A stretch of DNA of 64,000 nt from Trichodelitschia bisporula. Its lineage: Eukaryota. A program made the position numbers and the translations under genes. Where the stretch lies: assembly GCA_010356995.1 (NCBI GenBank), contig ML996699.1, forward strand, positions 651,697 through 715,696, given 5' to 3'. Positions 8,504 to 14,448 of the stretch are shown piece after piece. The notes beneath the pieces were generated by a model. That model worked only from the letters and a program-made list of their open reading frames with translations. It made no database searches and was not told the DNA's origin. Positions within the stretch are counted from its first letter, which is position 1. Each line of letters starts with the position of its first letter.

Positions 8504-11500
8504 CTATCTCTTCCGGCAAATATCCGACAACTTGACCACAATATCGTTGTTATGCTGGAACCCCTTCCCCATCCCCGACGCCACCTTCCCATCAATCTGA
8601 TTGCGAATCTTCGCCATCCCCTGCATCTCCTCCCTCGTCCCCCTCCCAATCGCCCCCCCCGCAAACCCATTCATCAATATCCCCATCACCGCCAACGGCG
8701 CTGACTCTGGATTGATCACCGCATCCGCAACTCCGAGCCCGATATCCGCCCCAACGCCCATGACTGCAAACACGCGCGCCATGTTCGCCAGTCCCGCGGA
8801 GAGCGCGCCTAACTCACCGATGAAGGGCACGACGGCGAAAATGGCGCCGAGGATCGTGAGGATGAGCGCTTGCTGCTCGCGCTTTTTTTCTTTCTTCCCG
8901 ATATCGCGCACCGTGCCGATTTGTTCGATCGCCTGGGAGAGCAGCATTGCGGGGACGGAGTACACTTTGAATGGGTCCGAGAGCGTGCCTTCCTGCCCCG
9001 AGGTGACCATATCCAGCTCGCTCTCGGTAACGCGGAGGAGCAGATCCTGCGCGTTGGGCAGGGCGAGCTCGATGATTTCCTTGGGATTCGGAACCGGATA
9101 GTCAGAGTTCATCTGCGGGATACCTAGGTACTCCCACGTGGAAATGGGGGTGCGATCAATCCCGCCATTGAACCCACTATCCTTACCATTGAAATTCACC
9201 CAACTCTTATCAATCCCCGTCTTCTCCGCCAACTCCTTCCAAAACCCATTCGCATCCCTTAGCGTAAACCGCATGCTGAATTTCGCGCTCAGGCCCGGCT
9301 TGTATTTAGTCAGATAGTCCTTGTCGCCGCAGGGTCCCTTTTCCGCCACGCTGTTGGAGCGCGTGGATTGGCAGTCGAAGTATTTAAGTCCCGGGCCGTC
9401 GCCCTCCCACCACCCCATGAAGTCCTTGATCTCACGGGCCATGTAGCTGCGGAAGACTTTACTGTAGGCGTTGAACAGGTCGTCGTAGCCTGGTTTTGTC
9501 TTGTTGTACTCCGACAGCGCGGTCTCGATCATAGTCCCTGATGTCGCGATGCCGGCGATGTACACGCAGTACGGGTCCATGGTGCTGGAGGCCTTGTCCA
9601 GGGCGTCGAAGGTGGGGAATTCGAGGTTAAAGTTGCACATCAGCGGGCCTGGTTCTTCGTCCTGGCGCTCGAGGGCGCCTTTCCGTGTGCCGCCGATGGT
9701 GGCGCCTTTGTTGGAGAGCAGGAGCCAGGCGTTTGTTGCGGTGGCGAAGCCGTTCTCTTCCGTTTTGCGCTCGACGGTTTTGAGGCTGGGAATCAAGTCA
9801 GCATCGCTCGGGATCCGCGGAACAGCAACCTACCCCTGAGGACTGATCACCTCCTTGCCCCCAACGGTAAACAGGTTGAACATCCACACGCCCTCCGAGT
9901 AATCCGTATCAATCAGCCTATCCTGACACACACCCCCAAACTTCGCACAGTCATCCTTATAATCCGTAAAAAAAGCATAAAAACCCCCGCCATACAGATA
10001 CACATTCCGACTCTTAATAACCCTCAGCGCCCACGCCTCGCGACACGTATCAAACCCCTTCGCCGCCCCACAATCCGCAAACTCAGGATCGTAGGCAAAG
10101 TGCTCGCTCGGCGGGTACGGGCGGAGGGACGGCGTCTGCCCGGCCTGGAAGTACGGCGTCTCGGACTGGATGTGTCCGAGGTAGATATTGTTCGCGCCAG
10201 CCAGCTGCCAGTTGTACAGCGTAGAGTGCTCGTTCGACACGCTGTACACCCAGCTCGGGCCCTGGGACTCGATGAGGACGCCGCGGGCCCCGTAGATGTT
10301 GATCCGGGTCTGTAGCTTCGATTCCACATCATGATCTGCGCCTCGCATTAGCATCATCCCTTCAAACCCTCCCCTCTCCTCTCCTCCTCTCAAAAAAGGA
10401 AAAAACATACCAGCCACCCAGAACCACATATTCTCCATATAAATCGAGCTGCCAGACCTAACATGCAACATCATCGCCGCCGCCATACAGCTCTCCTGTT
10501 TCTGCGCCCCAAACTGGTGACAATTGCTCTCGAGCAGCCCACTCCCCGCCGCGCCGCCCACGCGGAATATCACGTCGAACATGGCAGCGCTGCCTTGGTT
10601 CGATTGGTAGATGTTCCATTCCATGAGCACGGCGCCCGCGGTCGGGCCGGACTGCGTGAAGAGCATATCTGAGATTTCGACGGCGCCGACGTCGCCGGGC
10701 TGGCCCACCCTGCTCACGTTAGCTTTATCGTCTGTGGATGGGGGGTGGTGGAGCGACCGTACCTGGCGAGAATATAGGGATGATCTGGATCCGCAAACTT
10801 GGCCCCCGTAGCCACAATCTGGCTCCACAGCACACCCACCATGCGTGTCCCTGACGGAATGAAAAGCGTCTCATCAACCAAATATATCCCGGCGGGAAAC
10901 ACAAGAACCTTCTTCTCCCCCGCCGCCTTTGCCAACGCCTCATTAATCCCCCGCGCATTCCCCGCCGCGCTGGTCCCATCGTTCTTAACCCCGAAGTCTA
11001 GGACGTTGATGAAATTTCCCGCGGGCTCGCGGTGGTACATCGGTTTCTCGCGCTCGTACCAGTCATCCAGTAGCAGCAGACCAGGATCCTTCTTCGGGAC
11101 CGGAATCGGACCCATGGTTATCCGCCCCTCGGGCGACGCATCGTCAAACCGCCGCCCTAGGCCCCAGAGCGGGATTTTCTGCGGCCCGCCGGCGAGGAGC
11201 GCGTCCCCTGTGTTGGAGGCGACGGCGACGCGGGAGGAGCCCGCGAGCTCGATGTTTTCGAGGAGGACGGTGGCTTGGTACCCGGTTGTTTGGAGGACGA
11301 TGAGCATGGTGTCGACGTTGGTGAAGCTGCTGCCTTGGACGATCAGAGAGCCGGTACTCTGCTTCTTCTGCGTGTTGCCGTCGACGCCGAAGCCTGTTGC
11401 GTTGATGCCGACTTTGCAGTCGGACACGAGCATTGATTTCCAGGTGAAGCCCCAGGACCAGAGCATTTCGATTGCCGTCCTAAGCCGTTAGCAGCGTCCA

Positions 11501-12589
11501 ATTGGGTGCGGAGATTACCCTACTGGCACTTCGAGAAGCGCAGGTTACGCGCCGTGTACTGCTGACTGCCCGCCACGAAGCCAACCGCGCCGCCAGTGAA
11601 AGATAAGTCGCTCACGAAACCTAGCCCGTTAGCCGGTCCGCTCAGCCCCGTGGAGCTTACTCACCTCCGCTCCCGTTTTCCATGAAGACACCGCGGTGCG
11701 TAGCCCCCGCCGTGGTCGGCATCTTAAAGTCGAGATTGTGCAACGTGCACGCCTGTGACACCTGCCAATGAATACCAGCCGGGAACCCATTCCCCACCCC
11801 CCCCTCGACATAATTCGGCATGAGCGTAAGATCCAGCACCAAATTCCTAATCTGGCGATAAAAATTGTTCTGATTGATCCACCTATGCACCCAAATTAGC
11901 CCGTTCCCCACCCCCATACTCAAATCAACTCACCAGTTCTGCCCATTGCTCTCCGGGATATAAACATCCGTATCAACCAGCGCAATGCCCTTGAAATCCT
12001 TCGCCCCGAGGATAACAGCGCGATCGGACGGGTCCCCGGCGAAGACCGTGAAGTAGTACTGGATGATAGGCTTCGTGATCAGGTACTTCCCCGGCGGGAA
12101 GTACACCACCGCCCCTTTGGTCGAGGTTGCATTGCACCCCTCGCCACACCGGCCCCCCCTCGTCACAGCGCTCATAATCGCCGCCCAGTCATCCGTGACC
12201 CCATCGCCCTTCGCACCATACGCCTTCACGTTGCGCAGGACGGGGTAATCAGCGGATCCGGCGAGGGGCTGCTTGTGCGCGTATTTCGGGTCAGCCATCC
12301 AATACGCCATCGGGGCTTGGGCGAAGCCTTCCGTGCTGGAGGTGAGGCGGAAGTTGGCGGTGACGTTGGCGAAGCGGGGGGGGGAGGGGGAGGAGGAGTT
12401 CAGGTGGGTTAGACCTGGGTTGGAGTCGAGGTGCAGGGCGAGGATTTCGGAGGTTAGGGCGGCGGTGCTGTTCATGTATGCTGCGTAGGGGGCGCCGGGG
12501 GGGCCGATGGCCATGAAGCTGCATGTTGAGAGAGTGGAGAAGTAGATGAGGAGAAGGGTGGTCAGGAGGGGACCGTAGGAGACGGCCAT
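8504..12589 (-). CDS. Secreted GH55 exo-beta-1,3-glucanase (two beta-helix domains) fused to a ~425 aa C-terminal region ending in a hydrophobic hairpin
   Basis: Signal peptide MAVSYGPLLTTLLLIYFSTLSTCS. GH55 motifs RNVKAYGAKGDGVTDDWAAI, VYFPPGKY, NQNNFYRQIRN, GIHWQVSQA, ENGSGG, WVADHD, QSETPYFQ. Introns 11883-11933, 11621-11664, ~11480-11524, ~10711-10762, 10336-10410 and 9786-9833. The last intron joins ISPQG in frame to LKTVERK of the 8504-9785 exon. Confidence 0.85.
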
Positions 12590-13381
12590 GTTGGGCTATA
12601 GCCTATGAATGATGGTGATAGAGAAAGCGTCGTTCGCACAAGAGAAGCTTAGGGAGAGGACGATGTGGATGTGGGGATACAGCGGGAGAGCGCCTTGATA
12701 TCTCCACGATAGGACCTGAAGTCGGAGAACCGTGCCATGGTGAGCCGGGTCCAGGTATGCGGTCAATTGATGCCCAGACCACAGCGACTTCGCAACCCAT
12801 CCTCGCATGACCGGCCGCTGTGCCTGAAACGCGTTTATTCCTTCGCGCGCTTGCGCGTCGAGCATCGTCGTCACCAGGCACAGCCCGAAAGACCCGAAGA
12901 TAGACTGATTCACAGCGCTAGCGACCGGGAACCAAGAAATGTTGCCGGATAGCTCGCCGAAAAAAAAACCCTGTCCTAGGCATAAAAGTCGTGATAAGTA
13001 GAAAAAAAGGGCCGAGTAGAGACGCCGACGACAGGACAAGCTACTCGGCACTTTCTAGTCTTGGTTAAATGCCTTTATTTTGGACACGGGTACGTACCTT
13101 GACCCCGAAATGGTAATTTGAGGTGCATGGAAGGATCCGAAGGGGTAGATATTCATCTATTTTAAATTAGCATCGTGCACTGTTCAGTGACGTTAGCTTA
13201 ACCCCAAAGATAGCCCAATAGAGCAAAATAATTGTTCACCGCGTACAGACTTAGACAAAACGCAACTCACAGTTCGACATAATTTGAACGAAGCAATTCG
13301 TCCTCAGGCGTGTCTCTCTTCGCCATCTCTCTACCAGCCTCGCCAGCCAACTCCTCCATTGGCCAGCCAGCAACCGCAACC

Positions 13382-14248
13382 ATGCATCTCAGCCTCAGCC
13401 TTGTCCTCCCCCTCCTCCTCGCCCTTCTCACCCTCACCAACGCCAAAACGCTGCGCAAGCGTGACATGGACGCTGGGCCTTACGAAGACCTCCTCTTCTA
13501 CTACGCCTACAAAATGAACTGGCACGCCGCAAACAACGGCGGCCCAGGCCTCACCATCGCGCCCAGCTGCGTTGCCAGCGGCCGCCCCTGCACCTTCCTC
13601 GAGTTCCTCCGAGCAACAGCCGCAGATCCGACACAAATCAACATGTCCGCAGGTGCCGGGACTTCTGATCCAGACATCAACGACGCGAAGCTGAACCGGT
13701 ACGTCCAGCCGAGTGGAAAAGCCTGGGCGGGCGTGTACGATGGTGCCAAGCTGCACGGGAAGTACAACCCCGCGGTGAAGGGGTTCGGGCAATTGATCTC
13801 GCTCACAACGGACGCGGTTCAAGCCTGTCGGGTGTGGCAAAAGGGGATAGATCCGAAGTCAGCGCCAGCGGTAGCGATGAAGCAGGCCTTCGACCAGGTG
13901 TTCCCCGCAGTGCGACACATCTATGCCGCGCGGATGAGGGCCACGTGGCCGTATCGGTTGCGGATTGCCCAGAGGGAGGCGAATAAGCTCGGGATTAAGC
14001 TCGAGACGACGCAAGTTGGGTATTTCGACAACCAGTACAGATGGGAGAAATGGAACTGGGCAAAGACGGCGAAGCCGTATGCGACTAATGATCCGAAAAT
14101 TAGGGCGCTGGCGAAGAAACTGAGATCGCTCGAGTCGACCGATTTTGAGGCGAAGGGCCTTACGAGCGAGGAAAGCAAGTCCAGGGCGCATTCGGCGGTG
14201 CTTCAACATGCGTCTAACGCTCTTCAGACGCTGGATAAGGAATGTTGA
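13382..14248 (+). CDS. Secreted protein of unknown function (288 aa), candidate toxin/effector
   Basis: Intronless ORF. Signal peptide MHLSLSLVLPLLLALLTLTNA, then KTLRKR (Kex2-type site), then DMDAGPYEDLLFYYAYKM...IAPSCVASGRPCTFLEFL. Basic helical C-terminal half ending in Cys. Confidence 0.8.
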   Translation: MHLSLSLVLPLLLALLTLTNAKTLRKRDMDAGPYEDLLFYYAYKMNWHAANNGGPGLTIAPSCVASGRPCTFLEFLRATAADPTQINMSAGAGTSDPDINDAKLNRYVQPSGKAWAGVYDGAKLHGKYNPAVKGFGQLISLTTDAVQACRVWQKGIDPKSAPAVAMKQAFDQVFPAVRHIYAARMRATWPYRLRIAQREANKLGIKLETTQVGYFDNQYRWEKWNWAKTAKPYATNDPKIRALAKKLRSLESTDFEAKGLTSEESKSRAHSAVLQHASNALQTLDKEC

Positions 14249-14448
14249 GTGTACGATGGCAGGCGGTGAAGTATGCTGAAACCTCATGTTTTTGGACACA
14301 AGTTCTCATCCGCTACAATTGTCTGTATCTAGATGCGCTGGCTTACTGTTATTCATCATTGCTACCACTTCGTTAGCTGCCATCATCAGCTAGCAGGTAG
14401 CTAGCATTCTTCTGAGCCCATGAAGACCTACCTCTGACCCCTACCTTA

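What the first reader, a model, noticed from the sequence alone, without database searches (positions are those of the whole stretch)
8504..9833. GH55 enzyme spliced onto a ~425 aa non-catalytic tail with a pore-former-like hydrophobic hairpin
The ORF track shows 8504-9796 as a separate ORF. However, a canonical 48 nt intron (9833 GTAGGT..GCTGAC..CAG 9786) fuses it in frame to GH55. The tail has a Cys-containing helical region, a charged helix KKEKKREQQ, then LILTILGAIFAVVPFIGELGALSAGLANMARVFAVMGVGADIGLGVADAV..PLAVMGILM. I recognise this charged-helix-then-Gly/Ala-hairpin pattern from the C-termini of killer-toxin-type GH18 chitinases, which would imply domain shuffling between hydrolase families. 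That homology is recalled, not computed.
Basis: partly seen in the sequence, partly recalled or inferred. Interest (0 to 1): 0.7.

Follow-up and report, generated by a model that had tools for sequence, protein, structure and literature searches.

The report
Glucanase-headed zymocin-like toxin carrier pair
This fungal gene really does join a cell-wall glucan-cutting enzyme to the same tail that killer-toxin chitinases carry, and it sits back to back with a small secreted protein that has the hallmarks of a killer-toxin payload, so it is probably a weapon against other fungi that uses a different wall-attacking enzyme than the known ones.

Summary
Observation confirmed. The 48-nt intron 9833-9786 is skipped in transcript-type contigs of two runs from one sample, giving one 1256-aa ORF. 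The last GH55 strand lies beyond the intron. The remaining ~380 aa are the C-terminal module of killer-toxin-like (C-II) GH18 chitinases (27%, E 2e-33). It has 581 relatives; of the best 150, 51 sit behind GH18, 19 behind GH55, 14 behind GH71, and 66 are unassigned. A terminal Cys is kept in 117 of 119.

A second GH55-tail gene in this genome has the same kind of neighbour, and a motif scan found a relative beside a LysM-GH18 chitinase with this tail.

Best reading: a zymocin-like antifungal system with a beta-1,3-glucanase head, in a Dothideomycete, a class where the published survey found none. Not shown: toxicity, the disulfide link, membrane insertion, sense transcription of the partner. 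No pore-former fold match was found.

The parts
8504..12589 (-). Seven-exon gene for a 1256-aa secreted GH55 beta-1,3-glucanase with C-terminal tail (exons 12589-11934, 11882-11665, 11620-11524, 11479-10763, 10709-10411, 10335-9834, 9785-8504)
   Evidence: Frame check; all six joints in one contig; match to 5M5Z E 3e-160 and 3EQN E 1e-155
9786..9833 (-). 48-nt phase-2 GT-AG intron that joins the GH55 body to the last exon
   Evidence: skipped in both runs; an intron at the same place in the C23 paralog (44-45 nt)
9713..9785 (-). Last strand of the GH55 fold, encoded after the intron
   Evidence: Aligns to the final residues of 3EQN; the tail-less GH55s on C1 and C21 end at this motif
8507..9646 (-). 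~380-aa tail shared with C-II GH18 chitinases and GH71 glucanases; helical bundle with a small beta insert; Cys 50, 73, 138, 152, 423 conserved
8651..8869 (-). Gly/Ala-rich hydrophobic segment (tail residues 306-378) after a charged helix; candidate membrane-inserting part (inferred)
   Evidence: Hydropathy; model confidence under 50 at 308-357
8516..8518 (-). Terminal Cys423; candidate partner for a disulfide to the small secreted protein (inferred)
   Evidence: Cys in last 12 residues of 117 of 119 full-ended relatives; 86 of 86 in its column
13382..14248 (+). Divergent intronless gene, 288 aa, signal-peptide-like N-terminus, KR site, Glu35 (position 8 after KR), His270, Cys288; candidate gamma-toxin-like payload
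   Evidence: GC3 0.73 like the GH55 exons; same kind of gene beside the C23 paralog and beside a GH18-tail gene in L015
13051..14431 (-). Minus-strand spliced RNA across the spacer and the candidate payload gene (introns 14431-14362, 13270-13157, 13097-13051): antisense to that gene
   Evidence: Joints; GT-AG ends on the minus strand

Best explanation
The locus is a two-gene, zymocin-like antifungal system in which the usual chitinase head is replaced by a GH55 exo-beta-1,3-glucanase. SHOWN: one spliced GH55-tail gene; the tail is the C-terminal module of C-II killer-toxin-like chitinases; a divergent small secreted gene with Glu-8/9, late His and terminal Cys accompanies tail-bearing genes in all three loci whose surroundings could be read. 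INFERRED from the zymocin model: both proteins are secreted and joined by a disulfide between their terminal cysteines; the GH55 head binds and erodes beta-1,3-glucan in a competitor's wall; the tail's Gly/Ala hydrophobic segment engages the membrane and helps the payload in; the payload acts inside, most likely as an RNA-cleaving enzyme. The tail is thus a delivery module that has been paired more than once with different wall hydrolases. My odds by step: fusion 0.98; tail is the C-II module 0.97; carrier-payload pair 0.7; hydrophobic segment inserts in the target membrane 0.55; payload is a tRNA or rRNA nuclease 0.5.
For: Splice and single frame. Tail homology to a LysM/CBM18/GH18 protein over 89% of the query. 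Terminal Cys 117 of 119, against 7 of 59 window ORFs of 150 aa or more with Cys in the last 4 residues (a narrower span, so only a rough background). Published marks of gamma-toxins: secretion signal, Glu-8, C-terminal Cys, Cys at the chitinase end (10.1101/2024.10.25.620242); Glu-9, His-287, Cys-317 of PaT (PMC11848437 passage); 226-366 aa in Pezizomycotina (PMC13348850 passage). P0002 (288 aa), the C23 neighbour (340 aa) and the L015 protein (303 aa) all have the Glu motif, His 17-18 residues before a terminal Cys, and fit the size. Within this genome 2 of 2 tail-bearing GH55 genes have such a neighbour; 0 of 3 tail-less GH55 loci show the motif in the 10 kb fetched. The motif scan gave 9 metagenome hits, 2 in signal-peptide ORFs; the one of those two with enough flank (L015) lies divergent to a LysM-GH18 gene with this tail (E 5e-69). 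Outside the scanned motif the next 45 residues are alike beyond shuffles: 10, 32 and 3 of 2000. GH55 tails do not form one clade (AU p 0.0003, 55 rows).
Against: The pairing rests on three loci, two from one genome, and the motif was derived from those two. 7 of the 9 scan hits were noise. Beyond the N-terminal ~75 residues the three small proteins are barely or not alike (48, 1410 and 907 of 2000 shuffles reach the score). P0002 found no relative but itself in two word-based searches. Glu-8 in P0002 needs a Kex2 cut at KR; counted from the likely signal cut it is residue 14, and signal sites were read by eye. Every splice seen across the P0002 region is on the opposite strand, so its sense transcription is not shown. 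No immunity-like gene was recognised beside either locus (I had no immunity query). Homology of the tail to the yeast zymocin beta subunit itself was not tested. The published survey notes C-II chitinases without any toxin neighbour.
Confidence: 0.68

Rival explanations
1. The tail is itself the effector: the glucanase brings a membrane-damaging domain to the target, as chitinases carry Hce2, and the neighbour gene is incidental or only a helper.
For: Long conserved hydrophobic segment in 92 of 92 tails; low-confidence segment in an otherwise confident helical model, as would be expected of a part that refolds; weak ESM feature neighbours under 0.9 include a cluster with ToxA_N in 30% of members (lead only).
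Against: An almost invariant terminal Cys matched by a terminal Cys in the neighbour, and the same kind of neighbour in three loci with two different enzyme heads, are not explained.
Confidence: 0.12
2. It is a carrier-payload pair, but the payload is not a ribonuclease (another enzyme or a non-enzymic effector), so it works like zymocin only in delivery.
For: No sequence match of the small proteins to solved structures or Pfam; the three are unlike each other over most of their length; PMC13556262 itself speculates on other cargo for chitinase carriers in non-Dikarya.
Against: Glu-8/9, His and Cys spacing match the nuclease criteria; published gamma-toxins also lack mutual similarity, so a blank search is expected.
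Confidence: 0.12
3. The tail is only a membrane or wall anchor for a housekeeping wall-remodelling glucanase, a leftover of a chitinase, and the system is no longer a weapon.
For: Transcript-type contigs from what is probably plain culture cover the gene; it lies among housekeeping-type genes; no immunity gene recognised.
Against: Three ordinary tail-less GH55 genes exist in the genome; two diverged paralogous loci (about 65-75% DNA identity in the matched GH55 pieces; tails 27% identical) both keep tail, terminal Cys and partner gene.
Confidence: 0.08

Closest known systems
Pezizomycotina zymocin-like toxin clusters: C-II GH18 chitinase + gamma-toxin (+ immunity) (Heneghan, Salzberg, Wolfe; bioRxiv 10.1101/2024.10.25.620242, parts 1-4 of 5 read)
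   Same: Large secreted hydrolase ending in Cys beside a small secreted protein with Glu-8 and terminal Cys; introns; same C-terminal module as a LysM/CBM18/GH18 protein.
   Different: Head is GH55, with no GH18, LysM or CBM18; no immunity gene recognised; host is a Dothideomycete, a class in which that survey found no cluster. The preprint mentions one GH71 and one xylanase locus but has no occurrence of GH55. Its supplements and the journal version could not be read.
Kluyveromyces lactis zymocin (alpha/beta/gamma) and PaT
   Same: Wall hydrolase + hydrophobic C-terminal part + separate Cys-linked payload; Glu/His/Cys marks (passages of PMC11848437 and PMC11119588).
   Different: Nuclear and spliced, not on a linear plasmid; glucan rather than chitin is the likely receptor; sequence homology to the beta subunit or to PaT not shown; alpha/beta cleavage not shown.
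Fungal GH55 exo-beta-1,3-glucanases (PDB 3EQN, 5M5Z, 8JHH)
   Same: Full-length match; the glutamates in SNEHS and QSETPY align with Glu residues of 3EQN (that these are the catalytic ones, Glu610 and Glu633, is recalled).
   Different: The solved enzymes end about 755 aa; this one continues for about 400 aa.
Pfam PF26794 (LysM11_ab)
   Same: Carried by 55% and 19% of members of the two nearest ESM Atlas clusters to the tail (scores 0.96, 0.95) and listed for P0004, so part of the tail is probably already catalogued.
   Different: Not in the Pfam copy I could scan (one search found nothing); which residues it covers, and its description, were not seen.

Membership tests
GH55 beta-1,3-glucanase | Two beta-helix (PF12708) domains and full-length match to solved GH55 | tested here: met
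   PF12708 twice, E 9e-87; 5M5Z E 3e-160, 3EQN E 1e-155
GH55 beta-1,3-glucanase | Active-site glutamates kept | tested here: met
   SNEHS and QSETPY align with SEHH and QTETPY of 3EQN; catalytic roles recalled, activity not measured
Zymocin-like cluster (Pezizomycotina) | Carrier has a C-II GH18 chitinase domain, usually with LysM | tested here: not met
   Only PF12708 in the head; no GH18 match at this place in the genome search
Zymocin-like cluster (Pezizomycotina) | Carrier ends in a conserved Cys | tested here: met
   DICRKR end; 117 of 119 relatives
Zymocin-like cluster (Pezizomycotina) | Adjacent small secreted protein of 226-366 aa | tested here: met
   288 aa, divergent, hydrophobic N-terminus read by eye; no signal-peptide predictor was run
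Zymocin-like cluster (Pezizomycotina) | Glu-8 of the mature payload | tested here: inconclusive
   Position 8 after the KR site, 14 after the likely signal cut; position 8 after the likely signal cut in the L015 relative
Zymocin-like cluster (Pezizomycotina) | Late His and C-terminal Cys in the payload | tested here: met
   His 18 before terminal Cys in P0002 and L015, 17 in the C23 protein; spacing is 30 in PaT
Zymocin-like cluster (Pezizomycotina) | Payload belongs to a Tox-P sequence group | not testable with these tools
   The published sequences are in supplements that are closed; journal version not held
Zymocin-like cluster (Pezizomycotina) | Immunity gene (present in only some clusters) | tested here: inconclusive
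   None recognised in ORF lists; no immunity sequence was on hand as a query
Zymocin-like cluster (Pezizomycotina) | Intracellular toxicity, RNA cleavage, beta-gamma disulfide | not testable with these tools
   Needs bench work
Alpha-helical pore-forming or translocation domains (colicin, diphtheria T domain) | Buried hydrophobic helical hairpin in a matching fold | tested here: inconclusive
   Hydrophobic segment present but modelled under pLDDT 50 at 308-357, so fold searches cannot decide

The most novel reading that the evidence does not exclude
The tail is a general, swappable fungal protein-delivery module: the same Cys-ended membrane-engaging domain has been joined several times to hydrolases for each of the three main wall polysaccharides (chitin GH18, beta-1,3-glucan GH55, alpha-1,3-glucan GH71), each paired with a disulfide-linked payload. 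Zymocin would be one chitin-directed case of a wider polymorphic A-B toxin system, and glucan-directed versions could reach targets with little exposed chitin, such as oomycetes.
Probability: 0.45. Interest if true: 0.8.

Novelty: new variant of a known kind. Interest (0 to 1): 0.64.

Why it matters
Zymocin-like toxins are thought to reach their victims through chitin, and how the payload crosses the membrane is poorly understood. A natural version with a beta-1,3-glucanase head separates targeting from delivery: the part kept across three unrelated enzyme heads is the tail, which names it as the thing to study. It also explains long GH55 and GH71 proteins now annotated as plain glucanases or hypothetical proteins, offers a way to find payload genes that chitinase-based searches miss, and extends these systems to Dothideomycetes, where the published survey found none.

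Tried and rejected
Fold of the tail: AlphaFold2 model pTM 0.73; Foldseek against PDB no match at E 0.001; VIA-align best Z 7.1 (rmsd 4.3, 139 aligned, designed bundle; CAMP factor Z 7.1, rmsd 3.9, 127 aligned), none at Z 8, within the range of common helical bundles; no colicin or diphtheria T domain among the rows listed, which excludes nothing. Tail profile against PDB sequences: nothing under E 0.01. Complex of tail and P0002: no verdict (score 0.01, folded without alignments). Model of P0002: pLDDT 41, not searched. P0002 relatives: only itself; ESM Atlas no usable hit; Pfam and PDB sequence searches blank for the small proteins. Tail-pattern scan of metagenomes: 223 pattern hits, none confirmed, so I have no genomic context for the named GH55-tail proteins of other fungi. 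Plasmid collection: no yeast killer plasmid among the 10 of 68 rows listed, all matching only the GH18 part. The run search listed no holder on record as RNA. Earlier findings of this scan: nothing relevant in 5 look-ups. Rejected: tail as a separate gene (GH55 would lose its last strand; contig joins across); the public model's shorter intron (contigs skip 48); a coding immunity ORF in the spacer (spacers of the two loci share nothing).

Full report
1. The observation. The window is fungal. A protein 100% identical over the shared part is named by its source as from Trichodelitschia bisporula, a Dothideomycete. On the minus strand, six GT-AG introns give one frame of 1256 aa from ATG 12589 to the stop at 8504; of six donor positions tried for the third intron only one gave a single stop. 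Three independent lines support it. (a) Contigs of two runs from one sample skip exactly these 48 bases, and one contig carries all six coding joints; the runs are only guessed to be RNA, but they skip nine GT-AG introns. (b) The last residues of the solved GH55 3EQN align beyond the intron, and the public model's 7-residue insertion at that place equals what the longer intron removes. (c) A paralog on contig C23 has an intron at the same place. Two relatives (P0005, P0007) read through head and tail in one piece.

2. The tail. It matches the C-terminal 385 aa of a LysM/CBM18/GH18 protein at 27% identity, E 2e-33. An unfiltered search found 581 relatives at E 0.001 and listed 150. By their upstream parts these are 51 GH18, 19 GH55, 14 GH71 and 66 unassigned, 64 of them fragments with 70 residues or fewer upstream. 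Eleven of the GH55 labels rest on longer matches; the other eight on the last strand and linker only. Pfam gave GH71 matches in 10 of 30 proteins scanned, 7 over the cut-off. Named GH55-tail proteins come from Colletotrichum, Acrodontium, Claviceps, Myriangium and Microdochium, a GH71-tail protein from Aspergillus (20 proteins looked up, most unnamed). Five cysteines are nearly invariant; 117 of 119 relatives that reach the end have Cys in the last 12 residues. All 92 aligned tails have a hydrophobic window of 1.6 or more in the last 140 residues. AlphaFold2 gives a confident helical bundle with a small beta insert, but 308-357 is under pLDDT 50, so the hairpin's shape is not determined.

3. 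Shuffling. In a quick tree of 84 labelled tails (66 unassigned or short rows and two short GH55 rows left out) the GH55 label needs 5 changes and GH71 6; well-supported branches force at least 2 each. On 55 rows (five long branches dropped, every second GH18 kept) a single GH55 clade is rejected, p-AU 0.0003. The labels were set before the tree, the decision to test after it; the tree is unrooted, so I give no donor or order.

4. Divergent from the GH55 start, 792 bases away, lies an intronless 288-aa ORF (13382-14248) with a hydrophobic N-terminus, a KR site, and Cys as last residue. The C23 paralog has a divergent neighbour 797 bases away, 340 aa with one intron, ending in Cys-Ser-Ile-Lys. 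The two share YExxxFYYAYK; the back-translated pattern has exactly these 2 matches in 25.8 Mb. The three tail-less GH55 loci show neither tail nor motif in the 10 kb fetched for each. In metagenomes the pattern gave 9 hits: 7 in short or unrelated frames, 2 in signal-peptide ORFs. L014 is too short to show neighbours; L015 holds a 303-aa protein divergent to a LysM-GH18 gene whose tail scores E 5e-69 on the tail profile. The 45 residues after the motif are alike among the three beyond shuffles (10, 32, 3 of 2000), the rest hardly or not (48, 1410, 907 of 2000). All three have His 17-18 residues before the terminal Cys; the Glu is residue 8 after KR in P0002 and 8 after the likely signal cut in L015.

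5. What is known. Heneghan, Salzberg and Wolfe (10.1101/2024.10.25.620242; parts 1-4 of 5 read) describe nuclear clusters of a C-II chitinase and a small secreted gamma-toxin with Glu-8 and a C-terminal Cys, matched by a terminal Cys on the chitinase; 2 of 3 candidates tested stopped yeast growth. They found none in Dothideomycetes, and note two loci with a GH71 or xylanase gene instead. [quoted passage not shown] PMC13442484 (passages) added nothing on this point. No held paper has both 'GH55' and 'zymocin'; searches listed no description of a GH55 carrier. The journal version and the supplements (Table S1 lists the loci) were not available and could hold a GH55 case. Pfam PF26794 probably covers part of the tail.

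6. Mechanism. By analogy with zymocin, both proteins are secreted and linked Cys to Cys; the GH55 head, whose active-site glutamates are kept, binds and thins beta-1,3-glucan; the hydrophobic segment meets the membrane; the payload enters and most likely cuts RNA. Only the anatomy is shown. Against it: three loci only, a motif drawn from two of them, Glu-8 dependent on a KR cut, no immunity gene recognised, and RNA across the payload gene that is spliced only on the opposite strand, so sense expression is open.

7. Verdict. It works like a zymocin-type system with probability about 0.7, but it is not a member of the defined chitinase clusters, because the GH18 head is absent. New variant of a known kind; interest 0.64. 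The bolder reading, a general swappable delivery module for three wall polymers, has probability 0.45 and would deserve 0.8.

Noticed in passing
window 13051-14431, minus strand: Spliced antisense RNA runs across the candidate payload gene, from just behind the neighbouring alcohol-dehydrogenase-like gene towards the GH55 5' end; in run X2 one contig joins these. It could be a long 3' UTR, read-through, or a way to damp the payload gene.
   Followed up: partly
G000:C23:329192-335377 (L004, L005): Second, diverged GH55-tail locus with the same last intron, one extra intron in the tail, and a divergent 340-aa one-intron secreted gene with an Ala/Pro-rich insert after the N-terminal motif.
   Followed up: yes
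L015:1-5525: Metagenome locus with a LysM-GH18 gene bearing the tail, divergent to a 303-aa secreted Glu-8/His/Cys protein: a classical cluster whose payload is related to P0002.
   Followed up: yes
P0003 (public model of window 8504-12589): The public annotation is partial (870 aa), starts late, uses a shorter last intron adding 7 residues, and is named 'pectin lyase-like protein'.
   Followed up: yes
P0098, P0067, P0031, P0061: Some GH18-tail proteins continue beyond the tail: P0098 ends in a HeLo domain (E 2e-11), P0067 in an MFS domain (perhaps a gene-model fusion); P0031 and P0061 have about 400 unassigned extra residues.
   Followed up: no
P0046: Carries the GH55 last strand and linker much like the window's, yet its tail nests in a well-supported mainly GH18 clade: a likely recent head swap.
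   Followed up: partly
L004:3314-3856 minus; L006:5622-7526 plus: Near the C23 locus: a small secreted Cys-rich (CFEM-like, by eye) gene and an NB-ARC/TPR-like gene (by eye) with masked repeats.
   Followed up: no
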